The notes beneath the pieces are model-generated. The model saw only the letters and a list, made by a program, of their open reading frames with translations, did not search any database and had not been told where the DNA came from. DNA of 64,000 bases, taken from positions 206-64,205 of the forward strand of contig JAOATL010000001.1 in the NCBI GenBank assembly GCA_030158125.1, written 5' to 3'. The stretch comes from Limnohabitans sp. (GTDB taxonomy: Bacteria > Pseudomonadota > Gammaproteobacteria > Burkholderiales > Burkholderiaceae_C). Positions 13,996 to 61,486 of this stretch are shown here, in pieces. The position numbers and the translations under genes are program-made. Every line of letters starts with the position of its first letter. Within the stretch, counting starts at the first letter, position 1.

Positions 13996-14014
13996 ATTCT
14001 AGAGAATACTACGA

Positions 14015-14043: not shown

Positions 14044-14080
14044 GAACTTACTTTCAGTCAAATTGATAATCTTTTTCACC

Positions 14081-15784: not shown

Positions 15785-15845
15785 TTTTTTCTGATTCATT
15801 TTCCCGCCGTATTTTTTTTCATTTTTTATTTACCAAGGAGCTCGC

Positions 15846-16790: not shown

Positions 16791-16795
16791 GAAAC

Positions 16796-17572: not shown

Positions 17573-17575
17573 AAA

Positions 17576-18355
17576 ATGTCCATCCTTCACATCTCTCAAG
17601 TTAGCAAAACATTCAACACGCAAGGTTCAGTGACACAAGCACTGACGGCTACCGACCTGACTGTTGAAGAAAATGATTTCATTACCATACTGGGGCCTTC
17701 TGGTTGCGGCAAATCGACTCTACTGCGGATGGTTGCGGGTCTAGATACGCCGTCATCGGGTGAAATAGAACTAGAAGGCGTTCGAGTCACTGGGCCTGGC
17801 CCTGATCGCGGCATGGTGTTTCAAAGCTACACCCTCTTCCCATGGCTGAACATTTTAGAAAACGTGTGTTTTGGATTGCGTGAAAAAGGCTTGCCTATTT
17901 CAGAGCAGCATGACATTGCGCATCAATTCTTAAAAAAAGTGGGCCTGCAAGACTTTGCAAATCACTATCCCAAACAACTGTCTGGTGGCATGCAGCAAAG
18001 AACTGCATTGGCACGTGCACTGGCCAATGACCCACGCATCTTGCTGATGGATGAACCCTTTGGCGCCCTCGACCATCAAACACGAGAATTGATGCAAGAG
18101 TTACTCCAGGATATTTGGCAATCCGAGAAAAAAACAGTTTTATTTGTCACCCACGACATTGATGAAGCCATCTTCATGGGAAATCGTGTCATGGTGATGA
18201 GTGCAAGGCCAGGTCGCATCAAATGCGATTTACCTATTGCCCTACCCTACCCTCGCCATTATTCGGTCAAGACTTCCCCAATGTTTTCAGAACTCAAAGC
18301 CAGGCTGACAGAAGAAATTCGCATTGAAGTTAGGCGAGCAAGCGGGCTCGAATAA
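17576..18355 (+). CDS. NitT/TauT-family ABC ATPase
   Basis: [32 protein letters not shown]. Confidence 0.95.
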
Positions 18356-18399
18356 GTCACGGTGACAGTTGTTGTGTTCTTGCTTTGAAGGCGCTAATC

Positions 18400-44396: not shown

Positions 44397-46022
44397 ATGC
44401 CCGCTCTCCGAATTCGTTCGGTCTTGTTTAGCCTGATGGCCCTGATCATTTGTCTACCGGTTGTCGCCTTGATCAGCGCATGGTTGGAATGGAATGCGGC
44501 GTCAGCACAAGTCCTGCGGGACATGCTGGACACCGTGCTGCCGGACTATGCCATCACCAGTTTGTTGCTTTGCATGGGTGTTGCCTTGGGCGTCACTGTC
44601 TTGGGAACCAGTACCGCAGCGGCTGTCACCTTGTTCAGATTTCCAGGGCAGGCCTTCTTTGAATGGGCCTTGCTGTTGCCCATGGCCATCCCAGCCTATG
44701 TGGTGGCCTATGCATACACAGACTTCTTGCAATTCAGTGGGCCCCTGCAGAACTTCATTCGCAGCCAAACGGGCCTCGAAGGTCGTGTGCTGCCAGAAGT
44801 CAGAAGTTTGGGCGGTGCAATCTTGGTATTTTCACTGGCCTTGTACCCGTATGTGTATTTATTGGCGCGCACCGCATTCAGCGAGCGCGCCCCCCAATTG
44901 ATGGAAGCCGCGCGCATGTTGGGTGCGCCCCTTCAAAGGCGGATATTGGAAGTGGCCATCCCCTTGGCAAGGCCGGCTGTGGCCGCAGGTGTCGCGCTGG
45001 CCCTCATGGAGACGTTGGCGGACTTTGGTGTTTCAAGCTACTTTGGCATTCAAACATTCACAGCGGGCATCTACAAAGCTTGGCTGGTCATGGACAACCG
45101 CATTGCAGCTGCGCAATTGGCGAGCGTGCTTTTGGGTACCGTGCTGCTCTTGCTGCAAGTCGAAAAAATGGCGCAATCACGCATGCGATTTGCCAGCTTG
45201 CGCTCGGGCATCGCGTCGTCGGCCGATGCCCAGCCCACCACTTTGACAAGACTTTCAGGACTGACCATGACCACGTGGTGCGCCCTGCCCTTGATCTTGG
45301 GTTTTGTGCTGCCTGTGATTTTGATGCTCAGACCCTTGCTGTCCTCTGAAGTAGAAGTGCCATGGGGCCGATTCATTGACTGGGCTTTCAACAGCCTGCG
45401 GTTGGGTGCCATCACAGCCGTGTTGGCCGTGATGGTGTCATTGCTACTGTCGTTCAGTTTGAGGCGCCAAGAAGATGTGTTCACGCGCACAGCGACCTCA
45501 CTGATTGGCTTGGGGTATGCCGTTCCCGGCGCTGTGGTGGTTGTGGGGCTGCTGTTGCCTGTCACATGGTTACAGCTTCACTGGCCAGAAACGCAATTGG
45601 GTTTTTGGCTAACCGCCACAAGTTTGGGATTGGTATGGGCGTACTTGGTTCGCTTTTGCGCGGTTGCTCTGCAATCGGTTCAAAGTGGCTACGCGCGCAT
45701 ACCCAAAAGCCTTGACGACTCATCGCGCATGCTGGGTATCTCTGGTTTGAAATTACTGACGCAGGTCCATGCACCGCTGTTAAAGCGGTCCATTTTTGCA
45801 GCCACATTGCTGGTCTTTGTGGATGTGATGAAAGAATTGCCCGCGACATTGGTTTTGCGCCCCTTCAACACTGACACCTTGGCTGTGATGGCTTACCAAT
45901 TGGCAAGAGACGAGCGATTGAGTGAAGCCGCGCTACCCAGTCTGGCCCTGGTATGTGTGGGACTGTTGCCTGTGATCCTGCTTAGCCGGGCCATGCGCAA
46001 AAAGCCACCTACGAAGGCTTGA
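44397..46022 (+). CDS. fbpB: Fe(III) ABC permease
   Basis: PLA.P.YV.AYAYTDFL.F.GP.Q, YPYVY..AR, EAAR.LG, KELPATL.LRPFN. Confidence 0.92.
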   Translation: MPALRIRSVLFSLMALIICLPVVALISAWLEWNAASAQVLRDMLDTVLPDYAITSLLLCMGVALGVTVLGTSTAAAVTLFRFPGQAFFEWALLLPMAIPAYVVAYAYTDFLQFSGPLQNFIRSQTGLEGRVLPEVRSLGGAILVFSLALYPYVYLLARTAFSERAPQLMEAARMLGAPLQRRILEVAIPLARPAVAAGVALALMETLADFGVSSYFGIQTFTAGIYKAWLVMDNRIAAAQLASVLLGTVLLLLQVEKMAQSRMRFASLRSGIASSADAQPTTLTRLSGLTMTTWCALPLILGFVLPVILMLRPLLSSEVEVPWGRFIDWAFNSLRLGAITAVLAVMVSLLLSFSLRRQEDVFTRTATSLIGLGYAVPGAVVVVGLLLPVTWLQLHWPETQLGFWLTATSLGLVWAYLVRFCAVALQSVQSGYARIPKSLDDSSRMLGISGLKLLTQVHAPLLKRSIFAATLLVFVDVMKELPATLVLRPFNTDTLAVMAYQLARDERLSEAALPSLALVCVGLLPVILLSRAMRKKPPTKA

Positions 46023-47637
46023 GCGCCGTATGTCGGTTTTGTCGATCGCGCAGCCCTGAGCGCGCCGCGTCTTTTATCTCTACAAAGGCTCTACCACCCA
46101 AAGGTAAATTTTCATTTGCCAGACACAAGGGTCGGGCACGCGCACCACTGGCCACGTAATCTTGAAGCAACAAGCGACGCACCCATTCAACATCCAGCGC
46201 GCGGGTCACAGTGAGATAGTGAAACACAGCATCAACCAGGGCCTCAGGTGTGAGGCCATAGGTTTTGGCGGTAGACAACCAAAGGTAATCAGAAAAATCC
46301 AAGAAAGACCAAAACGCAGAGGGCGCAGGCCCAGGTGCTTGCAAAATCAAAGGCAAACTGGATTTAAATCGACCTGAATTGGCAACCAAATCCCAATACT
46401 TGGCCAGTCGCGTGAAGCGCTTCAGCGTCGCAGCGTCTACGTCTTTGGTTTGACGAACCACATAAGGGGGCTGATCGTCGTAGATCATGTCAAAGGGCAC
46501 TGTGTGACGTGAGATGGGGGTGCCGCGCAAACGCTTCAAAATGCCCAGTTGGATTTCTTGCGGCCCAATGGCCCATAGGCGATCAAACCCCGCGGCAAAG
46601 CTGTCCAAACTTTCACCAGGTAAACCAAAAATCAAATCGGTGTGAAGGTGCGCATGAGACTCATTGATCAGCCATCGCAAATTGGCCTCGGTTTGGGCAT
46701 TGTCTTGCCGTCGCGAAATGAGTTTTTGAACCGTTTCATTGAAGCTTTGAATTCCCACCTCAAACTGCAAGACACCGGGTGGAAACTGTTCAATCAAGGC
46801 CTTGAGTTTGTCGGGCAAATGATCTGGAATGACCTCAAAGTGAACCAACAAACCCCCAGCACCTGGCACCCTCAATCGGTCTAAAAAGAACTGGAGTATT
46901 TGCACTGAAGCGTCAATTTTCAAATTGAAAGTACGGTCTACAAATTTGAAATTTCGCGCACCCCGTTCGTAAAGAAGCTTGAGTTCGTTCAAAAATGGCG
47001 CCAATTCAAAAGCCCACGCCGTTTTGTCTAAGGCGCTAAGACAAAACTCACATTTGAAAGGACAGCCGCGCGAAGCCTCTACATACAGCAGGCGGTTAGC
47101 CAAGTCGGCATCTGAGAATTGCTGATAGGGCAACTCGATTTGATCCATGGGGGGCTGCTCACCGGCGATCACTTTCATCAGCGGCTGGGGACCATGGACC
47201 AATTGCATACAGAGTTTGGGGAAGCTCACATCACCCCACCCCGTGATCACATGGTCAGAGAGCTGCACGATTTCTTGCTGATCGGTCTCGTGGCTCACTT
47301 CGGGACCGCCCAGCACAATTTTTAAACTGGGACGTTGTGCTTTCAGCAGACGAATCAATTCGGTGGTTTGCACGACGTTCCAGATGTAAACGCCAAATCC
47401 GATCACCTGCACTTGACCTGGTTGGGGCTTGCCCAAAGTAGCAAGCAGATGCGACACCATGTCTGCCAATGGCTTGGCCAAAGTGAATTCGATCAACACA
47501 GTTTGATCGGCCAAAGCCTGACTGCCATGGCGAGCCATATTGGCCATCAAGTAACGCAAGCCCAATGACGCGTGAATGTACTTGGCGTTCAGGGTGCTGA
47601 GGATAATGGCAGGAGGCAATGGTGCTGATTCGGACAT
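46009..47637 (-). CDS. B12-binding-domain radical SAM protein (DUF4080-type)
   Basis: LNAKYIH..LGLRYL, GFGVYIWN, LGGPEVS, SRGCPFKCEFC (CxxxCxxC), FVDRTFN, EVGIQS, DLI.GLPGE. Confidence 0.9.
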   Translation of the reverse strand: MSESAPLPPAIILSTLNAKYIHASLGLRYLMANMARHGSQALADQTVLIEFTLAKPLADMVSHLLATLGKPQPGQVQVIGFGVYIWNVVQTTELIRLLKAQRPSLKIVLGGPEVSHETDQQEIVQLSDHVITGWGDVSFPKLCMQLVHGPQPLMKVIAGEQPPMDQIELPYQQFSDADLANRLLYVEASRGCPFKCEFCLSALDKTAWAFELAPFLNELKLLYERGARNFKFVDRTFNLKIDASVQILQFFLDRLRVPGAGGLLVHFEVIPDHLPDKLKALIEQFPPGVLQFEVGIQSFNETVQKLISRRQDNAQTEANLRWLINESHAHLHTDLIFGLPGESLDSFAAGFDRLWAIGPQEIQLGILKRLRGTPISRHTVPFDMIYDDQPPYVVRQTKDVDAATLKRFTRLAKYWDLVANSGRFKSSLPLILQAPGPAPSAFWSFLDFSDYLWLSTAKTYGLTPEALVDAVFHYLTVTRALDVEWVRRLLLQDYVASGARARPLCLANENLPLGGRAFVEIKDAARSGLRDRQNRHTALKPS

Positions 47638-47750
47638 GGGTGGATTATCGTGTGCAAAGCAAGTGCCAACGAAGCTCAGGGTAATTGCGCTGGCTTTGAA
47701 CATGAGAATGCTTGAAACTGGACCATCTCCATTCAGCACCCCAAAATTCT

Positions 47751-48854: not shown

Positions 48855-48879
48855 ATGCAAATTGGTTACAGTTAGAGGC

Positions 48880-51444
48880 ATGACCATTGACATTGATGAC
48901 AAAAACTTCGACATCAACGGGCTTTCTCCCGAACTAGCAGCAAAACAACTGAAGGAAGACGGCCCGAACGAGCAGGCTGCAAGTCATCGCCGCAACTGGG
49001 TGGATCGAATTTGGGACATGAGCCATGAGCCCATGTTTGTCTTGTTAATTGCTGCAGCGGCAATCTATTTGGTGTTGGGTGACTTAAGCGAAGGGCTAAC
49101 GCTGGGCATTTTCGTCTTGGCCGTGTTGGGCCTCACGCTCTACCAAGAAGGCAAATCCGATCGATCCATCGAATCGCTCAGGGCATTGAGTCAGCACACT
49201 GCGCAAGTGATTCGTGCAGGCGTGATCATCAAGCTGCCCTCGGTCGAGATTGTCAAAGGCGATTTACTCATCATTTCAGAAGGCGATCGTATTTCTGCAG
49301 ATGGTTTTTTGGTGAAAGCCGACAATGTCACAGTCGATGAATCACTTTTAACGGGTGAATCTGTACCGGTTGAAAAACAGCTGCGCAACAACCAACAAGA
49401 ACGCACTTTCGTTTTTTCTGGCACCTACGTTATCCGAGGACAAGGCCTGGTGCAAGTCACAGCCACCGGACCGCGAACTGAAATTGGGAAAATCGGTGCC
49501 AGCCTGAACCAACTGGGCGATGAAGAAACACCGCTGCATCGACAAACTGCAAAGCTCGTCAAAATACTCAGCAGCTTGGGTCTGGTTCTTTGCACGGCCA
49601 TGGTGCTGACTTTGGGTTTCAGAACTGGCGAGTGGCTACCAGCCATCTTGTCTGGCATTGCGCTGGCCATGGCGATGCTCCCTGAAGAGTATCCGGTTGT
49701 ACTCGCCATTTTTCCGGCCTTGGGTGCGCATCGACTGGCCAAACAAGGCGTTTTGACACGGCGTATCAATGCCATCGAAACTCTCGGCGCCACCACTGTT
49801 TTGTGCACCGACAAAACAGGTACCCTCACCCAAAACCAAATGACCGTGCAGGCCTTGATGGTGCCCGACGAGGTTGACAAGTGGGCACTTTTCAAAGTTC
49901 CCTCCCGCATTGAGCCCAGCGAATTTTCTGCACAGTTTCACGAACTGGTTGAGCATGCCATTTTGGCAAGCGCTGCCAATCCGTTCGACCCCATGGAAAT
50001 GGCATTTCACCAGTTTGGTCAATCTTGGTTAGGCGGGACTGAGCACTTGCACGCGGATTGGACCTTGGTTCAAACCTATCCTTTAAGTTCTGAGTTGCGT
50101 GCCATGTCGCATATTTGGCAAGTTGCCAACACAGCGCAACATGTTATTTCAGCCAAGGGCGCGCCGGAGGCGATCATTCGTTTGTGCCATATGACGCCGC
50201 AGCAGCAAACCCATTGGGAAACGGCCATTGGACACATGGCTGAAACTGGCTTGCGCGTATTGGCAGTCGCTGAGGGTCATCACAGTGGCACCGCTTGGCC
50301 CACGACTTCGCATGAGATTGATTTTAAATTTCTAGGTCTCATCGGCTTGTCGGATCCAATTCGCGATGAAGTGCCTGCCGCCATGTCTGAGTGCCACCAA
50401 GCAGGTATTCGTGTGGTGATGATCACAGGCGACTACCCCAAAACAGCGCGTGTGATTGCATCACAGGCCGGTATGCCGTCAGGTGATTTGTTGACGGGCG
50501 ACGAAGTTGAATCACTCAACGACACCGAACTTCGGCAACGCATGCAACAAGTGAATGTTTGCGCACGCATTTCGCCACATCAAAAGCTGCGCATTGTTCA
50601 AGCACTCCAACACAATGGCGACATTGTCACCATGACGGGTGATGGCGTGAACGACGCACCGGCCTTGCGCGCGGCGCATGTGGGGGTTGCCATGGGTGCT
50701 AGGGGCACCGATGTGGCACGCGAAGCGGCAGACCTCGTCTTGGTCAACGACGACTTTGCGTCGATTGTGCGCGGCATACGCACAGGCCGACGCATATTCA
50801 CGAATCTTCAACGCTCCATGGCTTACATCTTTGCCATTCACATTCCAATCGCAGGGCTGGCCATCATTCCAATGCTGTTTGCATTGCCACCGTTGTTCTT
50901 ACCGCTGCACATCGCTTTGCTAGAAATGATCATCGATCCGGCATGTTCTTTGGCATTTGAAAGCGAACCTGAAAGCCCCGATTGCATGACCTCACCACCG
51001 CGGGACACCACAGCGCCGTTGTTTGGATTGCCCGCCATGCTGGAGGCTTTTGGCTTGGGTCTTTGGGTCCTGGCAAGTGCACTTTGCGCGTATTGGGCAT
51101 CCCAATATATCCAAGGCTCGGGGGATGCGGTTCATCAGACCAGGTCAATGGTCATACTGGCATTTGTCACCGCCAATGGGTTTCTCATTTTCATGGCGAA
51201 ATCTAGACATCACCTTGCATGGCAACACAACCGGCCTTGGAACAAAACGGCACTGCTGATTGCCGGCGGTACCCTTTGTTTGGTACTGGCCGCGCAGTAC
51301 ACCCCTGTGCTGGCACATTACCTCAGCTTTTCTCCACTTGGTTTGACGCAATTGCTTGTGAGCATGGCCTGCGGCTGCTTGGGTGGTTTGTATTACGCCG
51401 TTCGCTACGCGGCGTCACGAAAGCCATCTTTACGAGGCCAGTAA
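48880..51444 (+). CDS. Cation-translocating P-type ATPase (Ca2+-type, P2)
   Basis: DES.LTGES, PEEYP, DKTGTLT phosphorylation site, MITGD, TGDGVNDAPAL. Confidence 0.95.
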   Translation: MTIDIDDKNFDINGLSPELAAKQLKEDGPNEQAASHRRNWVDRIWDMSHEPMFVLLIAAAAIYLVLGDLSEGLTLGIFVLAVLGLTLYQEGKSDRSIESLRALSQHTAQVIRAGVIIKLPSVEIVKGDLLIISEGDRISADGFLVKADNVTVDESLLTGESVPVEKQLRNNQQERTFVFSGTYVIRGQGLVQVTATGPRTEIGKIGASLNQLGDEETPLHRQTAKLVKILSSLGLVLCTAMVLTLGFRTGEWLPAILSGIALAMAMLPEEYPVVLAIFPALGAHRLAKQGVLTRRINAIETLGATTVLCTDKTGTLTQNQMTVQALMVPDEVDKWALFKVPSRIEPSEFSAQFHELVEHAILASAANPFDPMEMAFHQFGQSWLGGTEHLHADWTLVQTYPLSSELRAMSHIWQVANTAQHVISAKGAPEAIIRLCHMTPQQQTHWETAIGHMAETGLRVLAVAEGHHSGTAWPTTSHEIDFKFLGLIGLSDPIRDEVPAAMSECHQAGIRVVMITGDYPKTARVIASQAGMPSGDLLTGDEVESLNDTELRQRMQQVNVCARISPHQKLRIVQALQHNGDIVTMTGDGVNDAPALRAAHVGVAMGARGTDVAREAADLVLVNDDFASIVRGIRTGRRIFTNLQRSMAYIFAIHIPIAGLAIIPMLFALPPLFLPLHIALLEMIIDPACSLAFESEPESPDCMTSPPRDTTAPLFGLPAMLEAFGLGLWVLASALCAYWASQYIQGSGDAVHQTRSMVILAFVTANGFLIFMAKSRHHLAWQHNRPWNKTALLIAGGTLCLVLAAQYTPVLAHYLSFSPLGLTQLLVSMACGCLGGLYYAVRYAASRKPSLRGQ

Positions 51445-53007
51445 TCTTTTAATTTTGACCAGCTCCCACGCATCCGCCACCCACTCGCACAACACCGCCC
51501 GCGATTCCCGTGGATCAATGATGTCCAAGATGCCAAATTTTTCAGCCGTTTTAAAGGGCGAGGTCAGGTTGAGATAGAACTTCTCAAGTTCAAGTCGCTT
51601 GGCTTGTGGATCTGGGGCAGCTTCAATTTCTGTTTTGTGAGCAGCCATCACACCGCCCTCAATGGGAATCGACCCCCAGCGCGCAGAGGGCCACGCATAC
51701 CGGTGGTTCAAGGCTTCACCATATTTAGGTGCATGCATACCACCTGCCATGCCAAAACAGCGACGAATGATGATGGAGACCCAGGGTGATTGGCATTCAT
51801 GAACAGCTTGGCCCACACGCGTTGCACCCAACAAGGTGCCGGCCAATTCGGCCTCAAGTCCAGTTGCATTGCCTGGCTGATCCACCAAATTGACGACAGG
51901 CAAGCCAAACTGACTGCACATGTTCACGTGTCGTTCCATTTTGTAAGCTGCTTGAACAGTCATTGCACCGCCCTGCACTTTTGGATCGTTGATCACAATG
52001 CCCACAGGATAGCCATTCAGCCTTGCCAAAGCGGTGATCACAGAACCGCCTTGATAGCGGCCAATTTCAAATACTGAATCAAGATCAAAAATACTTTTCA
52101 GTATTTTTCGCGGGTCAAAAATTTGACGACGATCTTTTGGAATAGCATCTTTCAACCAGTCGTCAGCGCGGCTGGGAGAATCGCTGCAGCTTGTCACCGG
52201 CGCCAAATGGTGAATGCTTCTAGGCATGTACGACAAGAATTTCTGCACCTGTTGCAGGGCATCTGCTTCGTCTGCCGCCTCGTTGTGTACAACTGCATTC
52301 TTGCGCTGAACTTTATAGCCGCCTAAATCATTTTTATCGATCTCCACGCCATAAGCCTGACGCACCACATGCGGACCAGCAGCCATCACTTGCGCTTGAT
52401 CGTTGACCAAAACGGAGAAATGCGACGACACAACTTTGATGGCACCCAATCCCACACATGAGCCTAATGCAACGCCGACCACAGGAACCGTCTTGAGCAA
52501 CTCGTTGGCAGGCCATGTGGGATAACCAGGAATTTTAGTTCCGCCCAATTGCATCAACAACTTGACACTGCCACCTGCTGAATCAACCAAGCGCACAAGC
52601 GGCATGTGCATTTGGTGCGCGTACCTTTCGATGTATATCCATTTTTCGGCAACCGTTGCTTCAGACGAACCTGCGCGAATGCTGAAATCATCCGCATGAA
52701 TGGCCACTTTTCGGCCGTCAATTCGGCCTGTTCCTGTGACCGTATTGGTAGGATCCAATTGAAAAAATTGCCCATCAGCATCTTGATGGCCTTTGCCAGC
52801 AATGCAGCCCATCTCTTGGAAGCTGTGCGCATCCACCAAGCCAGCAATTCTTTGCCGCACGTCCATGCGTCCGGCGCCGTGCAACTTGGCGAGCGCTTGC
52901 GGCCCGCCCATGGCCAATGCTTGATTTCGACGGCTTTCCAGTTCTGTTAACTCGGTTTGCCAGGCACCCTCAGGCTTAAAACGGACAGGATGTTGAATGC
53001 TAGTCAC
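51430..53007 (-). CDS. Acyl-CoA carboxylase/decarboxylase carboxyltransferase subunit
   Basis: G.M.VR.RI..LVD..SF.E.G, D.FSIRAGS, LVDSAGG, LARL.G.PVGI, LP...LVDQPG. Confidence 0.9.
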   Translation of the reverse strand: MTSIQHPVRFKPEGAWQTELTELESRRNQALAMGGPQALAKLHGAGRMDVRQRIAGLVDAHSFQEMGCIAGKGHQDADGQFFQLDPTNTVTGTGRIDGRKVAIHADDFSIRAGSSEATVAEKWIYIERYAHQMHMPLVRLVDSAGGSVKLLMQLGGTKIPGYPTWPANELLKTVPVVGVALGSCVGLGAIKVVSSHFSVLVNDQAQVMAAGPHVVRQAYGVEIDKNDLGGYKVQRKNAVVHNEAADEADALQQVQKFLSYMPRSIHHLAPVTSCSDSPSRADDWLKDAIPKDRRQIFDPRKILKSIFDLDSVFEIGRYQGGSVITALARLNGYPVGIVINDPKVQGGAMTVQAAYKMERHVNMCSQFGLPVVNLVDQPGNATGLEAELAGTLLGATRVGQAVHECQSPWVSIIIRRCFGMAGGMHAPKYGEALNHRYAWPSARWGSIPIEGGVMAAHKTEIEAAPDPQAKRLELEKFYLNLTSPFKTAEKFGILDIIDPRESRAVLCEWVADAWELVKIKRLLAS

Positions 53008-53996
53008 TTTGCACCCAATCCCAATTCTTGAACCAACTCTGCGATGGCTTTTTGCTCAGACAACATGTATTTCATGGAATCTGCATGGTCTCTGAAAACA
53101 GGTCGCCCACCATTTTTTTCGACCAAGGCCACCCACGCCGGATGCAGTGCAACTTTGCGCAGCGCGTCTTCCCAGAAGGCAATCTGGGCCGATGACATGT
53201 TGGGCGGCAAGAGCAAACCGTTGTACGTTACAAAATCAGCAGCAATGCCCTGCTCCCGCCAAGTAGGCACTTGAGCCAGGGGGCCAGTACCGCGTGTGGG
53301 GGATGCACTGGCCAGAACTCGAACCTTGCCAGCGGCTACCTGCGGCATGATGACCGGTGCTGTTGCCGAAATCACGTCGATGTGACCACCCAGCAGTGCG
53401 CCCATTGTTTCACTGGACGCCTTGAATGGGGCAACTGTTAAATTTTTCACATCCACGCCCGCAACCTTCAGCGGTTTAGCAATCGACAAATGCGTGCCAG
53501 ATCCCAATGCAGGCGCCACGCCAATTTTGAGTGATGTGGCATCTTTGCGAAGCGCTGCAACCAAATCGGTACCTGTTTTAAGGGTCGAATCTGCACGCAC
53601 TGCCACCATTTGCGTTTCCTCCACCATCATGGCCACCGGCGGATACTCTTTCAAGTCAGCCTTCAACATGCCTGCGGCAATGGCCACCAACGTACTGGTA
53701 TGGAAAGTCCCCAACCAATGCGCGTTACCAGCATTGCGTTGCAATTGTTGCAAAGAGATGATGCCCGCACCGCCCGGCTTGTAATCAATCAACATGGTTT
53801 GACCATGGATCAAATTCAGTTGGGTTAAAGCATCTTGAATACCCCGCGCATAGATGTCCACAGAGCCACCAGGGGTGACGCCCAGGACATACGTCATTCG
53901 TTCAGTCGGTTTCCAACTGCTGCTTTGCGCTGAAGCCTTCAAGCCCATGCCGCTCAATGCCATTGCCATTGCAAATTCACGTCGTTGTAAGTTCAT
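53004..53996 (-). CDS. Bug/TctC binding protein
   Basis: PGGSVD, KPGAGG, HIDV, G.VRVLA; RREF signal. Confidence 0.9.
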   Translation of the reverse strand: MNLQRREFAMAMALSGMGLKASAQSSSWKPTERMTYVLGVTPGGSVDIYARGIQDALTQLNLIHGQTMLIDYKPGGAGIISLQQLQRNAGNAHWLGTFHTSTLVAIAAGMLKADLKEYPPVAMMVEETQMVAVRADSTLKTGTDLVAALRKDATSLKIGVAPALGSGTHLSIAKPLKVAGVDVKNLTVAPFKASSETMGALLGGHIDVISATAPVIMPQVAAGKVRVLASASPTRGTGPLAQVPTWREQGIAADFVTYNGLLLPPNMSSAQIAFWEDALRKVALHPAWVALVEKNGGRPVFRDHADSMKYMLSEQKAIAELVQELGLGAK

Positions 53997-54018
53997 GCTG
54001 TGTCTCCGTTTGTTGTCG

Positions 54019-55194
54019 TTAAGAGGGTTTGAATGCCGCCAACACATCAGCGGTGTCTTGGCCTAACTCATGGCCTGTATGCCTGATGGCTCCGGGTGTG
54101 CGAGACAAGCGCGGCACCACCCCCATTTGCGTGGTGTGCCCTATTTTGGGATGCGGCACTTTGACCAACATGTTTCGCTCTAAAAAATGTGCATCTTGGT
54201 AAATATCGGCGATGGTGTACACACGCGTGTTGGGGACACCTACCGCTTCGAGCATGACCGCCAAATCTTGGCACGCATGCTGGCAAGTCCATTCAGCAAT
54301 GATTTGGTCCAGCGCCCTCGCATTGGCTGGCTCCCCTCTGGCCCGAATGTTGGCGAACTCTGGAACCTGCATCAAGTCGAGCCGCCCCATGGCTTGCATC
54401 AGGCGTTCACATGTAGGATTGCTATTGGCCGCAATCAAAATGTAACTGTCATCCTGGGTGGGATACAAACTGTTGGGTGCCATGCGCGGCAAATTAGCAC
54501 CTTCTCGCTTGGGCACGGTGCCGTGTTTTTCATAAGCAGGCACGATCGGCTCCATCTGCGTAAATGCCGTTTCGTACAAGGCCACATCCACCACTTGCCC
54601 CAAACCCGTCTTGTCTTTATCTCGCAAAGCGGCCAACGCGCCAAACGCCGCATAGGTGGAGGTCAGATAATCGGTCGTAGCCAAGGCCACACGGGCCGGT
54701 GGTCGATCGGGATCGCCGGTCATGTGACGCACACCGCCGACAGCCTCACAAATGGCGCCATACCCAGGCCTGGGGGCGTAGGGACCAGTTTGCCCAAAAC
54801 CACTGATGCGAACCATCACCAAACCAGGATTGGTTTGAGACAACGCCTCGAAACCTAAACCCAGTCGCTCCATGACACCTGGCCGATTATTTTCGACCAA
54901 GATGTCGGCGCTTTGAATCATGGCCTTGGCGACACGCAAGTCATCGGGATTCTTGAGATCCAGCACCACCGATTTTTTGTTCCGCAGCAGTGAAGCAGCA
55001 TACAAAGAAACATCGTCAACGTGCTGGCCCATTTGTCGAACGGGATCACCTTCGGGCGGTTCAATTTTGATCACCTCAGCGCCAAAATCTCCCATCAACC
55101 GAGTACAAGCTGGACCGGCAATGGTGGAGCAAATTTCAATCACCCTCAGGCCACGCAACGGTCCTGTGGGTTGCATCACACTGTCATCGCTCAT
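54019..55194 (-). CDS. Family III CoA-transferase (CaiB/BaiF)
   Basis: PL.GLRVIE, AGP, GAEVIKIEPP.GD, RNKKS..LDLK, EN.RPG, RISGFGQTGP. Confidence 0.94.
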   Translation of the reverse strand: MSDDSVMQPTGPLRGLRVIEICSTIAGPACTRLMGDFGAEVIKIEPPEGDPVRQMGQHVDDVSLYAASLLRNKKSVVLDLKNPDDLRVAKAMIQSADILVENNRPGVMERLGLGFEALSQTNPGLVMVRISGFGQTGPYAPRPGYGAICEAVGGVRHMTGDPDRPPARVALATTDYLTSTYAAFGALAALRDKDKTGLGQVVDVALYETAFTQMEPIVPAYEKHGTVPKREGANLPRMAPNSLYPTQDDSYILIAANSNPTCERLMQAMGRLDLMQVPEFANIRARGEPANARALDQIIAEWTCQHACQDLAVMLEAVGVPNTRVYTIADIYQDAHFLERNMLVKVPHPKIGHTTQMGVVPRLSRTPGAIRHTGHELGQDTADVLAAFKPS

Positions 55195-55946
55195 TTTAAT
55201 TTTCCTGATTTGACTTTGGCCCTTGCCGCCATTTGACGTGTTGACTCTAGGCTGGATTCATAGATGCGTGTGCGGGCCAATGCCACCAAGCTCTCGACAT
55301 CACCTTTGCGCTGTGCATCCAATGCCAGGCGCCATAAACTGGCTGAACGCTGACGCCGCTCAACGGTGGCCAAACCCAATTTGCTATAGCGCAAGGTTTG
55401 CAAAGACAGGCCCGTCAGCAGTCGATGAAGTTTTTGATTGCCAGCCAACCGTGCACACAAAAGGATCAGGCGATAAGTGGTTTCGGCATAATCGTCACCG
55501 CTGTGCGGATCGGACGCCAGTTTTTCAAGTCTGTCGGTGCCAGAGGCTAAAATTTGAAGCCATTCTGCTGATGGTTGTTTGCCAATTTTTCGAATCACCA
55601 CTTCGAACAAACCTGCACGAATTTCCATCAACTCATCAAGTTCTTTCTCATTCAACTCTGTCACGATGGCGCCACGCCTTGGCAACAAAGTGACCAGACC
55701 TTCCCGCTCCAAAATCCTCAAAGCATCTCGAATGGGACCACGGCTTACCCGGAACTCTTCGCTAAGCTCCGCCTCACCAATTCGAGCACCTGCCAACATG
55801 ACACTCGCCAAGATTCGATCACCGAGTTTGGCGGCTATTTGCTCTGGCACCGTCAAGGTCGGTATGTCTTGGTCGGCAAACAAACGAAAGGCGACTGTAC
55901 TTTCTGCAGCCTGATAGGCATCGACTGGTAAGTCTTTGACGCGCAT
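55191..55946 (-). CDS. GntR-family regulator (FadR/FCD)
   Basis: E.EL...F.VSRGPIRDAL..LE.EGLV...PRRGA.V plus FCD-like C-terminus. Confidence 0.9.
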   Translation of the reverse strand: MRVKDLPVDAYQAAESTVAFRLFADQDIPTLTVPEQIAAKLGDRILASVMLAGARIGEAELSEEFRVSRGPIRDALRILEREGLVTLLPRRGAIVTELNEKELDELMEIRAGLFEVVIRKIGKQPSAEWLQILASGTDRLEKLASDPHSGDDYAETTYRLILLCARLAGNQKLHRLLTGLSLQTLRYSKLGLATVERRQRSASLWRLALDAQRKGDVESLVALARTRIYESSLESTRQMAARAKVKSGKLK

Positions 55947-55949
55947 GGC

Positions 55950-56162
55950 CTACTCCAGGTGAATCACGACTTGGTCTTCTGCAACGGGCTCACCCTCCGC
56001 CACAAAAACCTCGGACACTTGCCCCGCACGCTCGGCTGCAATGGGAATCTCCATCTTCATTGACTCGACAATGATCAGGACCTCATCCGCCTGCACATCT
56101 TGACCCGGATTGACCAAGACTTTCCAAACTGTACCGGTGACTTCAGATTTAAGTTTCAACAT
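55950..56162 (-). CDS. Stand-alone biotin carboxyl carrier protein
   Basis: 70 aa; G.VWKV.V..G..V, ESMKME biotinylation motif. Confidence 0.9.
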   Translation of the reverse strand: MLKLKSEVTGTVWKVLVNPGQDVQADEVLIIVESMKMEIPIAAERAGQVSEVFVAEGEPVAEDQVVIHLE

Positions 56163-56176
56163 ATGTTAATTTAAAG

Positions 56177-56188
56177 ATTGTTAACAAT
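56177..56188. promoter_or_regulatory. Perfect palindrome ATTGTTAACAAT, FadR-type operator candidate
   Basis: 12-bp palindrome (TTGT-N2-ACAA) 15 nt upstream of the biotin carrier ATG. Confidence 0.65.
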
Positions 56189-56247
56189 ATTATGAAATCA
56201 AAAAACAACTCGCCTATCCGCGATAACCCTAGGGACAAAAATTTGGC

Positions 56248-56562
56248 TTAAGTGCCGAGGTCTAAGAAGACACGGCCGTTTTCGATCTTGACAGGCCAGG
56301 ATTTGACTGGCTCGGTCGCCGGTCCACATTGAACTGTGCCATCTCTTACATCAAACATGGCTTGATGAAATGGACACTCCACGTGATTGCCTTCCACAAA
56401 ACCATCACAAAGTTTGGCGTTGCCATGGCTGCAGTCGTTGTTGATGGCAAATACGCCCTCGTCTATCTTGAAAATAGCGATGTCGTGATTCTGAGGCGTG
56501 ACAGCAATGCCCGCGCCTTCAAACAAGTCGGCCTCTGCGGCCACGTCAAACCAGTTGCTCAT
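56248..56562 (-). CDS. nagAb: Rieske ferredoxin of aromatic ring-hydroxylating oxygenase
   Basis: CSHG..LCDG, ECPFHQ..FD. Confidence 0.88.
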   Translation of the reverse strand: MSNWFDVAAEADLFEGAGIAVTPQNHDIAIFKIDEGVFAINNDCSHGNAKLCDGFVEGNHVECPFHQAMFDVRDGTVQCGPATEPVKSWPVKIENGRVFLDLGT

Positions 56563-56564
56563 AT

Positions 56565-57041
56565 TTAAATGGGATAAATGACAGAATTGGGAATCATCTC
56601 GCTGTCGTATACGCACAAACGTTCAGCAAACTTGAAGCCATCGGGGGTAGACACAATGATGTCAAGGTAACGCCCCACGTTGTACACGGTGCTTTCTTTG
56701 TCTAGCTTGGTGCGAAACACGGCGTAGTTGGCCTCACTGTAGATTCGGCCCTCTTCAACTTTGCGAACGATGGGTGCGCCCACTACGTGCCGTTGATAGT
56801 AGGGATCGTGAAAGATGGTTTCACTGATGCCATACACACGGTCTTTCAGCATGCCCTTGCTGGTCAAAGACAAGGTTGCCAATGGAAATCCTCGTTCGTG
56901 GTTTTCACGTGGCTGTAGTTTGTAGACGCATTGTTCGGTGAAGAACTCTGGCCACAGCGCCCACTGACCGCTGTCAACGGCACTGGCGTAATCGGCATAA
57001 AGTTGCTGGATGCCAAACCATGTTTGCATGTCAACCATCAT
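56565..57041 (-). CDS. nagH: Salicylate 5-hydroxylase small subunit
   Basis: [39 protein letters not shown]. Confidence 0.9.
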
Positions 57042-58300
57042 CAATCCTCCATCACTTTTCGCCAATAGTCATACATGCCCCGGATGAGAGTTTCGGTCAC
57101 CATGTGATCAGTTTCACCCACATCTTTCCCCCCCAATTCAGCAACAGCACGGTGGTGTTGCTTGGACTCGAAGGCTTGCTGTGAAAACTCAATCACTTCA
57201 CCATCGTCGGCTGAGACAAATCCTGCGGGACCAAATAAATTGGCTTGTCGCAGACGACGCTCAGTCATCTCTGGCGTGTCATCTTCAAAGCCAAAGTGCG
57301 TCCACACAAAATCAAAGGCACCATGACCATCGGGCTGAATATGGCGCGTCGACACACTGTTCACCTGCTGCTGAAAAATCACGCTGGGGAACAGCGTCAT
57401 CATGACGGCTGTAGGGCCACCCCACCAAGCCTCTGGCACGATGTCCAAAAAACTGGGGTCGTTGAGTTCCATGCTGGCTTTGAAACTGCTGACTTGGGTC
57501 ACATCTGCAGCGCCGCCGGTGGCCTGTCCGGCAGATCCACGCGTTGAAATCATGGCTGCATGGCGGTGTTTGTCATCCATGCGCAATTCACTTTTGTTGT
57601 CGGCACGCCATAGGCCAAAGGTCACAAACCAGGTGTGCAACAAACCCGGGTGGTAAGGGTCTTTGATGTTCTCTTGCATGAGCTTCCAGTTGCCTGGAAT
57701 ACGTTGTCGGTTGTAGCCCAAAATCTTCAGTTGACGGCCATTGAACAGGCGATCAAAGTACTTCAAAATTGTGGGCCCCATGTAATCTTCAAGCGACTCC
57801 ACTTCGTGGTCAAATGAAGCAAATACAACGCCGCCGCGAGAGGCCACCTTCAGCGCAGTGAGGCCATGGTCTTTGGGATCAAAATCTGCGGGCATGCCGC
57901 CGTTGACCTTGCCTTCTTGTCGCACGCCGCGTCTAAAAGGGACGCCTTGCAACTTTCCGTCTAAGGCATAGCTCCATTGGTGATAAGGACACACCAATTC
58001 CTTTTTGTTGCCATGACGCTCCCGGCAAAAAGCCATGCCGCGATGGGCGCACACATTTTCAACCACATGAATCTGACCGTCCTGCGCACGCGTCAAGATG
58101 ACCGATCGCTCGCCAATGACGGTGCGTTTGAAATCTCCGGGGTTGGGAATTTCAGCCTCTAGCCCCACATAACTCCAATGCGCTTTGTAGAAAAAACGCG
58201 CCAGTTCCTTTTGGTGACTGTCTTGGTTGGTATAGACCGCAAAGGGAATGCGGTGTGTTCCTGATGTTTCCCAGTGAATTGGATGTTCTTGCATGTGCAT
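57041..58300 (-). CDS. nagG: Salicylate 5-hydroxylase large subunit
   Basis: [56 protein letters not shown]; start 58300 or 58294. Confidence 0.93.
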
Positions 58301-58375
58301 GTGTCTCCACAAGATTCTTGAGTTGCATCATGCCACCTGCATCCAATTAGTAAATCTTAATTTACATATAATAAT

Positions 58376-58392
58376 TATTCAAAATTCAAATA
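58376..58392. promoter_or_regulatory. Putative NagR/LysR site TATTCA-AAATT-CAAATA
   Basis: Imperfect inverted repeat with a NahR-like TATTCA arm between divergent nagG and nagR. Confidence 0.45.
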
Positions 58393-58403
58393 TTGAGAGA
58401 CGC

Positions 58404-59339
58404 ATGGAACTGGCCAAACTGGACCTGAATTTATTGCTGGTATTTCATCATTTATTGATCGTCAAACGCGTTTCGACTGTGGCCAACATATTGGGCATGA
58501 GTCAACCCGCCGTGAGCAGTGCATTGGGCAGACTGCGCGCCAGCTTAGATGACGAGTTGTTCATCAGAACACAAAGCGGCATGACGCCCACACCCTACGC
58601 CCTGCAACTGGCCGAGCCTGTGGCAGTGGCGCTGGATGTGTTGCAACAAGCCTTGAACGTTCGCGGTGCGTTTGATCCCAAAACCAGCACACGCAACTTC
58701 ACCATTGCGCTGACCGATGTTGGCGAGATGTACTTCTTACCGGTGCTGGTGAATGCCTTGGCAACGGCTGCGCCAGGCGTGACCTTGCAAATTGTCAGTG
58801 TGGCACAGACGTCACTGAAAGAAGACATGTCGACGGGCAAGGTCGACCTGGCCATGGGTCTCTTACCGCAACTGCAGGCTGGCTTCTTCCAGCAATCTTT
58901 GTTCAAGCAGCAATACATCTGCTTGATGCGCAAAAAACACCCCTTGGCAACCCGGCAAACCGTCAGCGTATCCGCCCTTTTTTCGGCCGAACATGTTCGG
59001 GTCTTGGCCACAGGTACTGGGCACGGTCGTATCGACTTAGTTTTAGACAAGCAAAAACACAATCGCAACGTGCGCTTGACAGTGCCGCACTACGTGGCAT
59101 TGGGCGATGTGCTTCAGCACTCGAACCTGGTGGCCATGGTGCCAGAGCGGTTTGCCCAACGCATTGTGAAGCCTTTCGACCTGGTCATGCGAGACCTGCC
59201 CTTAAAGCTTGAAGAAAGCCCCATTCAGCAGTGTTGGCATGGTCGCCTGCATCGAGATCCTGGTCACCGATGGCTGCGTCAGTTGATGCGCAAGCTCTTT
59301 GGCGACCAGGCCACCTTGGGCGAAGAACAAGCCTTTTAA
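58404..59339 (+). CDS. nagR: LysR regulator, NahR/NagR/DntR type
   Basis: MEL..LDLNLL, SQPAVS.AL.RLR, PTPYA..LAEP, TD.GE.YF.P, GTGHG, WH...H.DP...WLR. Confidence 0.88.
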   Translation: MELAKLDLNLLLVFHHLLIVKRVSTVANILGMSQPAVSSALGRLRASLDDELFIRTQSGMTPTPYALQLAEPVAVALDVLQQALNVRGAFDPKTSTRNFTIALTDVGEMYFLPVLVNALATAAPGVTLQIVSVAQTSLKEDMSTGKVDLAMGLLPQLQAGFFQQSLFKQQYICLMRKKHPLATRQTVSVSALFSAEHVRVLATGTGHGRIDLVLDKQKHNRNVRLTVPHYVALGDVLQHSNLVAMVPERFAQRIVKPFDLVMRDLPLKLEESPIQQCWHGRLHRDPGHRWLRQLMRKLFGDQATLGEEQAF

Positions 59340-59346
59340 TTTCAGC

Positions 59347-60519
<1,173 letters not shown>

Positions 60520-60598
60520 TTAAGGTCTCCGATGATCTATGACTTGGACAATTGGCCCAATTCAATGTCTAAGATACGCCTAAAGACTTCGAACAGGA

Positions 60599-61486
60599 AT
60601 GGCTGAAACTGGCAAAAACTTGTACATTTCGAACATGGAAAAACAACTCGCCTATGTACAGAGCTACAGCTTATTTGGAGAATCTACACATTTACCCGAC
60701 GTATTGCATTGTGAAACCATCGCGGATCGATCGGTTTTGCACGACTGGGAATTGGCGCCTCACAGACATGCGCGCTTGCACCAAGTCTTGTTGGTGCAAG
60801 CTGGCGGCGGTTCAGTCACCCTAGACGGAAAAACCCATGCCTTGGTCAAGGGTTCATTGGTCAATGTGCCGCCAGCCCATGTTCATGCATTTCGATTTGA
60901 AAAAGACACGCGAGGATGGGTCACCACCTTGGCAGACGAATTATTGGATGAACTGCTGGTAGGTGTCGGCACCCTTCGTTCAGAACTAGATCAGGCTTGC
61001 GTGTTGTCTGCCGACACCTTCATCACCCAAACAGTTAAGCAAATTTGGGTGGAATTCTCGTCTCAAGAGAAAGCCCGCGCCCTGGTTCTGCGAGGGCTCA
61101 GTGGTGTGATGCTGGGTTGGGTCGCCAGACAGCTTGCCCTGCCCGCCTCGCCTGAATCAAAGGTTTCGGACTCTGTGATCGTGCAGCGCTTCAAAGAGCT
61201 GATTGAGCAACACTTCACCCAACATTGGTCTGTGGGCCAATACGCCATCGCCTTGTCAATCTCCCCAACACATTTAAGCCGACTGACCCGTGCCACCACC
61301 GGCACTAGCGCATTGCGCATGATCGAGGCCCGCTTGATGCGAGAAGCACGCCGAAATTTAGCTTATACCAACTTGAATATCGCCACCATTGCTTACACAC
61401 TGGGCTTTTCAGATCCCGCCTATTTTTCACGCGTCTTCACGCGAGATGCGGGCATTTCACCCAAAGCCTTTCGATCGCAAATCTAA
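60599..61486 (+). CDS. pobR: AraC-family regulator of pobA
   Basis: Y.LFGE...LPDVLHCETI, H.W...PHRH, AY.LGF.DPAYFSR.F; start may be 60635. Confidence 0.85.
   Translation: MAETGKNLYISNMEKQLAYVQSYSLFGESTHLPDVLHCETIADRSVLHDWELAPHRHARLHQVLLVQAGGGSVTLDGKTHALVKGSLVNVPPAHVHAFRFEKDTRGWVTTLADELLDELLVGVGTLRSELDQACVLSADTFITQTVKQIWVEFSSQEKARALVLRGLSGVMLGWVARQLALPASPESKVSDSVIVQRFKELIEQHFTQHWSVGQYAIALSISPTHLSRLTRATTGTSALRMIEARLMREARRNLAYTNLNIATIAYTLGFSDPAYFSRVFTRDAGISPKAFRSQI

What the first reader, a model, noticed from the sequence alone, without database searches (positions are those of the whole stretch)
51430..56188. Biotin-dependent operon with carrier and carboxyltransferase but no biotin carboxylase
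Seen: operator palindrome, then BCCP (70 aa), GntR, family III CoA-transferase, Bug and carboxyltransferase, all contiguous or overlapping. The operator sits 15 nt from the BCCP start, so there is no room for an upstream carboxylase, and no Na+-pump beta subunit is present. Established: carboxylases need a BC subunit, while decarboxylases and transcarboxylases do not. Inference: a soluble pathway that imports an unknown di- or tricarboxylate, activates it to the CoA ester and decarboxylates or transcarboxylates it.
Basis: partly seen in the sequence, partly recalled or inferred. Interest (0 to 1): 0.66.

Follow-up and report, generated by a model that had tools for sequence, protein, structure and literature searches.

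The report
Split acyl-CoA carboxylase lacking its own BC
A freshwater Limnohabitans bacterium carries a repressor-controlled five-gene operon (tiny biotin carrier, regulator, CoA-transferase, periplasmic acid-binding protein, carboxyltransferase) that most likely carboxylates the CoA ester of an unknown organic acid and borrows the cell's housekeeping biotin carboxylase, because near-identical operons in relatives carry a biotin carboxylase gene of their own.

Summary
On the minus strand lie a 70-aa biotin carrier (ESMKME), a GntR/FCD regulator, a family III CoA-transferase, a Bug/TctC binding protein and a PccB-type carboxyltransferase (CT). A 12-bp palindrome sits 14 nt before the first ATG.

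The palindrome is a conserved operator in about 35 orthologous loci from many genera. The genome (3.06 Mb, rated 100% complete) has only three biotin carboxylases (BC): AccC, PccA and MccA. It has no Na+-pump beta subunit and no 5S-type subunit.

Of 48 Burkholderiales orthologous loci (CT 63-93% identical) with enough flank, 10 carry an intact BC-only gene in the operon. Within one clade, BC+ and BC- operons have CTs 89-91% identical and share the same Bug, GntR and operator. The in-cluster BCs come from three unrelated lineages, so BC is a required but exchangeable part.

Best reading (about 0.6): a split ATP-dependent acyl-CoA carboxylase whose carrier is charged in trans by AccC. The substrate is unknown. 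A BC-free decarboxylase cycle or an acyl-CoA:acyl-CoA transcarboxylase is not excluded (about 0.2 together).

Verdict: new variant of a known kind, moderate interest.

The parts
56177..56188 (-). Operator palindrome ATTGTTAACAAT. It fits the FadR/FCD-type T.GT-N2-AC.A pattern and lies 14 nt upstream of the BCCP ATG.
   Evidence: Sequence read. Conserved upstream of BCCP in about 35 orthologous loci of many genera, and as ATTGTCAACAAT in ligase variants. Absent in the IclR-regulated Orrella-type loci.
55950..56162 (-). Stand-alone 70-aa biotin carboxyl carrier protein (mini-BCCP) with biotinyl-lysine motif ESMKME.
   Evidence: PF00364, 64 bits. NF006079 aligns 1-70 of 70, 76 bits, below its cut-off of 95. 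Best solved relative is the B. subtilis 72-aa BLAP, 1Z6H. ESMKMEI is kept in 40 of 40 orthologs.
55191..55946 (-). GntR-family (FCD/FadR-subfamily) transcriptional regulator, the presumed repressor acting at the palindrome.
   Evidence: PF00392 plus PF07729. Orthologs are 53-89% identical in type A and type B clusters. It co-occurs with the operator.
54019..55194 (-). Family III (CaiB/BaiF/Frc-type) CoA-transferase that activates the imported acid. An AMP-forming acyl-CoA ligase replaces it in one clade of orthologous clusters.
   Evidence: PF02515, 392 bits, full length. All NCBIfam equivalogs score far below their cut-offs. Nearest structures are YfdE, formyl-CoA transferase and SUGCT. The ligase swap is shown.
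53004..54047 (-). Orphan Bug/TctC periplasmic solute-binding protein of the tripartite tricarboxylate transporter family. The probable start is M17 (about 53999), with an RREF Tat-like signal.
   Evidence: PF03401, 104 bits. Translation. Five TctA genes lie elsewhere in the genome. The nearest structures, BugE, Bug27 and AdpC, are only distant.
51430..53007 (-). Two-domain PccB/12S/AccD-type acyl-CoA carboxyltransferase of an uncharacterised family.
   Evidence: PF01039, 257 bits. TIGR01117 scores 264 bits against a cut-off of 999. Full-length alignments of about 30% identity to AccD4-type, 12S and PccB structures. 3755 homologues at E<=1e-30, with only generic names.

Best explanation
The operon encodes the substrate-specific parts of a split, ATP-dependent biotin acyl-CoA carboxylase.

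Proposed mechanism:
1. An unidentified organic acid is bound by the Bug protein and enters through one of the genome's TctAB channels.
2. The acid relieves GntR repression at the ATTGTTAACAAT operator.
3. The family III CoA-transferase converts it to its CoA thioester.
4. The PccB-type CT moves CO2 from the carboxybiotin of the 70-aa carrier onto the alpha-carbon of that acyl-CoA, giving a substituted malonyl-CoA that enters general metabolism.
5. The carrier is charged with CO2 in trans by a biotin carboxylase encoded elsewhere. This is most likely housekeeping AccC, the only BC-only protein in the genome, and less likely the BC domain of PccA or MccA.

Shown here: gene content, the conserved operator, the absence of a dedicated BC, and the optional, polyphyletic BC in orthologous operons. 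Inferred: the direction of the reaction, charging by AccC, and everything about the substrate.
For: 1. BC occurs in orthologous operons. Ten of 48 adequately flanked Burkholderiales loci have a full-length BC-only gene. It lies 3 nt upstream of Bug-CT (L030, L036, L038, L040, L060), between IclR and CoAT-CT (L045, L046, L054, L055), or after CT (L042).

2. BC+ and BC- operons are interleaved on the CT tree. Their CTs are 89-91% identical (L040 against L035 and L058), and they share orthologous Bug, GntR, BCCP and the same operator. They therefore most likely use the same ligand and run the same reaction.

3. In-cluster BCs belong to three unrelated lineages. BC40 and BC45 are 48% identical, no closer than either is to AccC, PccA or MccA. 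The Orrella type nests beside MccA, and the AU test rejects a single clade with p=3.6e-56. The CT/BCCP core has therefore repeatedly paired with different BCs, which fits a carrier that any BC can charge.

4. Most BC-less genomes checked have exactly one BC-only gene. This includes Ideonella aquatica, a sister to a BC+ Ideonella, and the window's own genome.

5. The parts a BC-free enzyme would need are absent genome-wide: no OAD_beta and no 5S/PYC_OADA. There is no second CT in the operon.

6. Precedents from established knowledge:
- B. subtilis YngH/YngHB/YngE uses a BC, a 72-aa carrier and a CT. That carrier is the best PDB hit to this BCCP.
- Actinobacterial AccA3 serves several CT subunits.
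- E. coli BC carboxylates an isolated biotinyl domain.
- Running BC backwards to make ATP is thermodynamically unfavourable at cellular ATP/ADP ratios, so an in-operon BC implies carboxylation.
Against: - No biochemical evidence exists for any member of this family.
- The large Comamonadaceae clade that holds the window has no BC in any of 28 adequately flanked loci. A stable BC-free way of working in that clade is therefore possible.
- The operon is self-contained, with only activation plus CT and no conserved downstream genes. This suits a CoA-transferase/decarboxylase cycle of the Frc/Oxc type at least as well as a carboxylase whose product needs further enzymes.
- AccC normally sits in a complex with AccB, whose N-terminal region mediates that contact. 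A 70-aa carrier lacks this region, so charging may be slow.
- Keeping a private carrier while borrowing BC is unusual for Proteobacteria.
Confidence: 0.6

Rival explanations
1. The operon encodes a soluble, BC-independent decarboxylase cycle. A malonate-type dicarboxylate is imported. The CoA-transferase loads it using the product acyl-CoA as donor. CT transfers the free carboxyl to BCCP-biotin, and carboxybiotin loses CO2 spontaneously or on the CT. The net reaction is dicarboxylate to monocarboxylate plus CO2. The logic matches Frc/Oxc for oxalate, or malonate decarboxylase.
For: - The operon is self-contained, with no conserved downstream genes.
- No BC appears in 28 of 28 adequately flanked loci of the window's large clade, and the genome has no spare BC.
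- The CoA-transferase is closest to YfdE/Frc-type enzymes.
- GntR regulators and ligase plus decarboxylase are the layout of the rhizobial mat malonate operon (own knowledge).
Against: - Orthologous operons with CTs 89-91% identical, the same Bug and GntR and the same operator contain an operonic BC. A BC would work against a decarboxylase.
- No carboxybiotin decarboxylase (OAD_beta) exists in the genome, and free carboxybiotin decays slowly.
- BC has been recruited three separate times, which argues that BC activity is needed.
Confidence: 0.15
2. The operon encodes a single-CT acyl-CoA:acyl-CoA transcarboxylase. The same CT first takes CO2 from malonyl- or methylmalonyl-CoA (made by ACC or PCC) onto BCCP70 and then passes it to the pathway's acyl-CoA. 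BC is then needed only indirectly, and an in-cluster BC is an optional direct input.
For: - It explains a conserved private carrier with an optional BC.
- 12S transcarboxylase is among the closest solved relatives, at 206 bits.
- The reaction is thermodynamically neutral.
- Earlier scan notes raise a similar idea for two-CT modules. Those notes are leads only.
Against: - No second CT and no 5S subunit is present.
- No known CT works this way physiologically.
- The observations are explained more simply by charging in trans by AccC.
Confidence: 0.07
3. The operon is a decaying remnant. It lost its BC and is no longer functional in Limnohabitans.
For: BC is absent. The BCCP has a very short leader with no Shine-Dalgarno sequence.
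Against: - All five reading frames are intact.
- The same BC-less layout, the operator and the ESMKME motif are conserved across dozens of species and genera at 63-93% CT identity.
- Hundreds of metagenomic homologues exist.
Confidence: 0.03

Closest known systems
Split three-subunit acyl-CoA carboxylases with a mini-carrier, e.g. Bacillus subtilis YngH (BC) / YngHB (72-aa BLAP, PDB 1Z6H) / YngE (CT), and archaeal AccC/AccB/PccB enzymes
   Same: The carrier is a separate single biotinyl domain of about 70 aa (best PDB hit). The CT is a separate two-domain protein. A BC-only protein is present in a subset of orthologous operons. The unit is coupled to an acid-activating enzyme.
   Different: The window's operon and genome have no dedicated BC. 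The CT is only about 30% identical to any characterised CT. The unit is linked to a Bug uptake protein, a family III CoA-transferase and a GntR repressor. The substrate is unknown.
Actinobacterial acyl-CoA carboxylases that share one alpha subunit (AccA3) among several CT subunits (AccD4/5/6)
   Same: One BC serves CTs encoded elsewhere. AccD4-type and AccD5-type CTs are the closest solved relatives.
   Different: In those enzymes the shared subunit carries both BC and BCCP. Here the carrier is private and only BC would be shared.
Na+-translocating biotin decarboxylases (Oad, Mmd, Gcd)
   Same: A CT plus a small biotin carrier, with no BC.
   Different: No membrane beta subunit exists anywhere in the genome. 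The similarity to GcdA is weak and partial. Orthologous operons carry a BC.
Propionibacterium methylmalonyl-CoA:pyruvate transcarboxylase (12S/5S/1.3S)
   Same: A 12S-like CT (206 bits) and a small carrier related to 1.3S, with no BC.
   Different: No 5S/PYC_OADA protein exists in the genome, and there is no second CT in the operon.
Formyl-CoA transferase / oxalyl-CoA decarboxylase (Frc/Oxc) and the rhizobial matABC-matR malonate operon
   Same: The logic is the same: a regulator, an uptake component, CoA activation by a family III transferase or a ligase, and one carboxyl-handling enzyme, all self-contained.
   Different: Their decarboxylases are the TPP-dependent Oxc and MatA, not a biotin CT. 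The resemblance is of logic only.

Membership tests
Biotin-dependent acyl-CoA carboxylase (BC + BCCP + CT) | Two-domain acyl-CoA carboxyltransferase | tested here: met
   PF01039, 257 bits, positions 3-474 of 493. Full-length alignments to PccB, 12S and AccD4.
Biotin-dependent acyl-CoA carboxylase (BC + BCCP + CT) | Biotinyl carrier domain with the (A/S)MKM lysine | tested here: met
   ESMKME is present in the window BCCP and in 40 of 40 orthologs. PF00364, 64 bits.
Biotin-dependent acyl-CoA carboxylase (BC + BCCP + CT) | A biotin carboxylase dedicated to the enzyme (same operon or a spare gene) | tested here: not met
   The whole genome has only AccC, PccA and MccA. The feature is met in 10 of 48 orthologous loci. 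A BC in trans remains possible.
Biotin-dependent acyl-CoA carboxylase (BC + BCCP + CT) | ATP- and bicarbonate-dependent carboxylation of an acyl-CoA | not testable with these tools
   This needs an enzyme assay.
Na+-translocating biotin decarboxylase (Oad/Mmd/Gcd) | Membrane beta subunit (OAD_beta, PF03977) that decarboxylates carboxybiotin | tested here: not met
   No match in the genome at E<=0.01.
Na+-translocating biotin decarboxylase (Oad/Mmd/Gcd) | CT alpha subunit plus small biotin carrier, without BC | tested here: met
   However, mmdA (TIGR01117) scores 264 bits against a cut-off of 999.
Transcarboxylase (12S/5S/1.3S) | 5S keto-acid carboxyltransferase (HMGL-like plus PYC_OADA) | tested here: not met
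   PF02436 has no match in the genome.
Transcarboxylase (12S/5S/1.3S) | 12S-type CT and a 1.3S-type carrier | tested here: met
   1ON3, 206 bits. 1DCZ and 1O78 match the carrier at E about 1e-7.
Biotin-independent malonate decarboxylase (MdcACDE) | MdcD/E-type CT with an MdcC ACP and the MdcA transferase | tested here: not met
   There is only a 25-bit partial hit to the MdcD model. The operon has no ACP or MdcA, and a biotin carrier is present instead.
GntR/FCD (FadR-subfamily) repressor-operator unit | wHTH plus FCD domains, and a conserved palindromic T.GT-Nx-AC.A operator at the controlled promoter | tested here: met
   PF00392 plus PF07729. The palindrome is conserved in about 35 loci. 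Binding itself was not tested.

The most novel reading that the evidence does not exclude
In Limnohabitans and most Comamonadaceae, the CT plus the private 70-aa carrier may work with no biotin carboxylase at all. It would be one of two things. The first is a soluble decarboxylase closing a CoA-transferase cycle on a malonate-type acid. The second is a single-CT acyl-CoA:acyl-CoA transcarboxylase that takes CO2 from malonyl- or methylmalonyl-CoA. Under either option, an in-cluster BC in other lineages would be an optional ATP-driven input. That would be a biotin-enzyme architecture not described so far in aerobic bacteria.
Probability: 0.2. Interest if true: 0.75.

Novelty: new variant of a known kind. 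Interest (0 to 1): 0.45.

Why it matters
The operon is common in abundant freshwater Betaproteobacteria (Limnohabitans, Rhodoferax, Hydrogenophaga, Rubrivivax and Ideonella groups), yet neither its substrate nor its enzymes have been characterised.

It offers a natural experiment. Near-identical operons with and without a BC gene exist in cultured sister species, for example Ideonella aquatica 4Y11 against BC+ relatives. This makes it possible to test whether a housekeeping fatty-acid-synthesis BC can service a catabolic carboxylase through a free mini-carrier, or whether a CT and carrier pair can work without BC.

Either answer would refine the rule 'no BC means decarboxylase or transcarboxylase' that is used in genome annotation. 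It would also identify an unknown carbon source for lake bacterioplankton.

Tried and rejected
- **Substrate from homology.** NCBIfam equivalogs for CT, CoAT, Bug and the replacing ligase all score far below their cut-offs. PDB relatives of Bug and CoAT are too distant to transfer a ligand.
- **Substrate from conserved neighbours.** Flanks differ in every genus. The And-type Rieske dioxygenase upstream is confined to the closest Limnohabitans relatives. In Orrella the cluster sits between ComDE-like TPP decarboxylase genes and an Ldh_2 gene. One Rubrivivax paralog adds an Amidohydro_2 gene. None of these generalises.
- **Literature.** Four full-text searches found no description of this operon type.
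- **Promoter scan.** The consensus scan found no sigma-70 site upstream of BCCP.
- **BC tree, first attempt.** The first BC tree contained three wrong-frame rows from high-GC loci. It was redone without them.
- **ORF calling.** Naive and GC3-based ORF calling in high-GC loci gave antisense artefacts. Gene maps therefore rest on tblastn plus Pfam.
- **Earlier scan notes.** They concern related two-CT modules, not this family; they share only 3 of 180 words. They were used as leads only.


Full report
**1. What is in the sequence**

The minus strand between 56188 and 51430 carries five genes:
- a 70-aa biotinyl domain protein (55950-56162; PF00364, 64 bits; motif ESMKME);
- a GntR/FCD regulator (55191-55946);
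- a family III CoA-transferase (54019-55194; PF02515, 392 bits);
- a Bug/TctC binding protein (53004-54047);
- a two-domain carboxyltransferase (51430-53007; PF01039, 257 bits).

Spacing is tight. BCCP and GntR are 3 nt apart. GntR/CoAT and Bug/CT each overlap by 4 nt.

The Bug reading frame probably starts at M17 with an RREF Tat-type signal. The perfect palindrome ATTGTTAACAAT lies at 56188-56177, 14 nt before the BCCP ATG. The gene upstream is a Rieske ferredoxin ending at 56248.

**2. The palindrome is a real operator**

I extracted the region upstream of BCCP from the related loci. The same palindrome, often extended to AGATTGTTAACAATCT, is present in about 35 loci from these groups:
- Limnohabitans;
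- Rhodoferax;
- Hydrogenophaga;
- Rubrivivax;
- Ideonella;
- unnamed Burkholderiales.

The surrounding intergenic sequence in these loci is otherwise unrelated. In the ligase variants the palindrome reads ATTGTCAACAAT and sits in the divergent promoter region. It is absent where an IclR regulator replaces GntR (Orrella type). It fits the T.GT-Nx-AC.A pattern known for FadR/FCD-subfamily GntR regulators (established knowledge).

**3. No BC, pump or 5S subunit anywhere in the genome**

The window lies in a 3.06-Mb, 24-contig genome rated 100% complete. It is a Limnohabitans by its nearest relatives.
- PF02785 finds three BCs: AccC (454 aa, next to AccB), PccA (692 aa, next to PccB) and MccA (732 aa, next to MccB).
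- There are five CTs: PccB, MccB, AccA, AccD and this one.
- OAD_beta and PYC_OADA have no match.

This CT and this carrier therefore have no dedicated BC, no carboxybiotin-decarboxylating pump subunit and no 5S partner.

**4.

The search for related loci returned 68 loci. Of these, 58 are Burkholderiales-type orthologs with CTs 63-93% identical. Ten are alphaproteobacterial homologues at 37-39% identity, which are single-chain proteins of about 1120 aa with BC fused to CT.

tblastn maps plus Pfam give four layouts:
- **Type A:** BCCP-GntR-CoAT-Bug-CT, as in the window. It has no BC and covers most Comamonadaceae. A Bordetella permutation, GntR-CoAT-CT-Bug-BCCP, belongs here.
- **Type B:** GntR, then a divergent BCCP plus AMP-forming acyl-CoA ligase, facing [BC]-Bug-CT. 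BC is present in L030, L036, L038, L040 and L060 and absent in L032, L034, L035 and L058.
- **Type C:** BCCP-Bug-IclR-BC-CoAT-CT (Orrella and relatives: L045, L046, L054, L055).
- **L042:** ligase-CT-BC-BCCP.

Among loci with enough flank, 10 of 48 carry a BC. The BCs are full length across their N, ATP-grasp and C domains. In L040 the BC ends 3 nt before Bug.

**5. BC is optional in the operon but recruited repeatedly**

On the CT tree, BC+ and BC- type B operons are interleaved. The CT of L040 (BC+) is 89% identical to that of Ideonella aquatica L035 (BC-) and 91% identical to that of L058 (BC-). Type A and type B share several parts:
- Bug orthologs, 52-61% identical to the window's in both types;
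- GntR orthologs;
- the same operator;
- the carrier.

They therefore most probably sense and import the same acid.

The in-cluster BCs are not orthologous to each other. L040-BC and L045-BC are 48% identical, no closer than either is to AccC, PccA or MccA. In a careful tree the type C BCs nest inside the PccA/MccA clade beside MccA. The type B BCs form their own clade, and L042's BC groups with an unrelated Orrella BC. An AU test rejects a single clade (p=3.6e-56), with the caveat that I named the group after seeing the tree.

I counted PF02785 hits in 16 genomes. Most BC-less-cluster genomes have exactly one BC-only gene. These are the genomes holding L017, L019, L033, L035, L047, L039, L032, L058, L063, L009 and L037. 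Three (L029, L051, L056) have a second one elsewhere.

**6. Interpretation**

An operonic BC implies carboxylation. Running BC backwards to make ATP is unfavourable at cellular ATP/ADP ratios, which is why decarboxylases pump Na+ instead (established knowledge).

CT, Bug, GntR, operator and carrier are orthologous and nearly identical between BC+ and BC- operons. Switching from carboxylation of X-CoA to decarboxylation of carboxy-X-CoA would require a simultaneous change of the imported acid, its sensor and its activating enzyme. The simplest reading is that all these operons encode the same carboxylase and that BC can be supplied in trans.

In the window's genome the natural donor is AccC. 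Three independent BC recruitments show that the carrier accepts different BCs. Three precedents support this:
- the B. subtilis YngH/YngHB/YngE enzyme, whose 72-aa carrier is the best structural hit;
- the sharing of AccA3 by several CTs in actinobacteria;
- carboxylation of an isolated biotinyl domain by E. coli BC (own knowledge).

I put this reading at about 0.6.

**7. What remains open**

The large clade containing the window has no BC in any of 28 adequately flanked loci. The operon is also strikingly self-contained, with no conserved downstream genes. Both points suit a CoA-transferase/decarboxylase cycle of the Frc/Oxc or malonate-decarboxylase type. GcdA alone can decarboxylate with free biotin (cited in PMC2996986).

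A single-CT acyl-CoA:acyl-CoA transcarboxylase that draws CO2 from malonyl- or methylmalonyl-CoA is also conceivable. I give these two readings about 0.15 and 0.07.

The substrate is unknown:
- All equivalog models score far below their cut-offs.
- Structural relatives of Bug and CoAT are too distant.
- The CT departs from PccB in the motifs around the active site: DSAGGSVK in place of DSGGARIQ, PGNATG in place of PGFLPG, and FGMAGGM in place of YGGAYDV. This is consistent with an unusual acyl group but does not identify it.

**8. Comparison and novelty**

The operon works like a split three-part acyl-CoA carboxylase and is filed as a new variant of that kind. It has a private mini-carrier, a CT of an uncharacterised family, and a BC that is optional in the operon and exchangeable. 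It is coupled to Bug uptake, to CoA transfer (or a ligase) and to a GntR repressor with a defined operator.

It fails the defining tests for Na+-pump decarboxylases (no beta subunit) and for transcarboxylase (no 5S subunit). Four literature searches found no description of it. Database names are generic.

Earlier notes of this scan describe related two-CT modules in freshwater Burkholderiales and reached similar 'BC elsewhere' conclusions. They concern a different family and are unverified leads.

**9. Limits**

Genome completeness is an estimate, and a BC in an assembly gap cannot be formally excluded. However, eleven further BC-less-cluster genomes also have only one BC-only gene. All functional statements are inference from sequence and gene context.

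Noticed in passing
window 56200-56245 (minus strand) and the equivalent position in L009, L011-L013, L019, L020, L027, L029, L037, L044, L048, L066: A second conserved motif, GGGTT(A/T)TC(C/G), lies about 30-45 nt upstream of the operator palindrome in many type A loci whose intergenic sequence is otherwise unrelated. It could be a promoter element or a second regulator site.
   Followed up: no
window 56162-56176: In the window and its closest relatives, only 14 nt (CTTTAAATTAACAT, no Shine-Dalgarno) separate the operator from the BCCP ATG. Other genera have a 25-45-nt leader with an AGGAG. The mRNA may be leaderless or nearly so.
   Followed up: partly
window 56248-59339: An And-type three-component Rieske dioxygenase lies directly upstream of the operon. 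Its large subunit, small subunit and ferredoxin best match AndAc, AndAd and AndAb, all below cut-off. There is no reductase gene, and a divergent LysR regulator is present. The arrangement is conserved only in the nearest Limnohabitans genomes (L009, L011, L012).
   Followed up: partly
window 59347-61486: pobA (4-hydroxybenzoate 3-monooxygenase, 688 bits, above its cut-off) lies next to a divergent AraC/HpaA-like regulator. Together with the Rieske cluster this forms a small aromatic-acid neighbourhood.
   Followed up: no
L067-L076 (Reyranella and other Alphaproteobacteria): The 37-39% identical homologues of the CT are the C-terminal part of single reading frames of about 1110-1160 aa that begin with a BC. 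This resembles single-chain long-chain acyl-CoA carboxylases (PDB 4RCN type).
   Followed up: partly
L039 (Rubrivivax albus) 13372-19537: The same genome has a second, paralogous cluster: LysR, CoAT, CT (63% identical), a different Bug, an Amidohydro_2 protein and a BCCP. It lies next to a first cluster that has a DctP (TRAP) binding protein.
   Followed up: partly
G010 / L045 (Orrella sp. 11846): The genome has four BC-only genes and no fused PccA/MccA-type alpha subunit. Its version of the cluster is flanked by sulfopyruvate-decarboxylase-like TPP alpha and beta subunits and by an Ldh_2 (sulfolactate/malate dehydrogenase-like) gene, followed by transposases.
   Followed up: partly
window 51430-51444: The 3' end of the CT gene overlaps by 15 nt the 3' end of a convergent 860-aa P-type cation ATPase (48862-51444).
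   Followed up: no
window 46009-47739: A 576-aa B12-binding radical SAM protein has only weak matches to methyltransferase subfamilies. It lies next to a 380-aa protein with a faint ScyD/ScyE-family hit.
   Followed up: no
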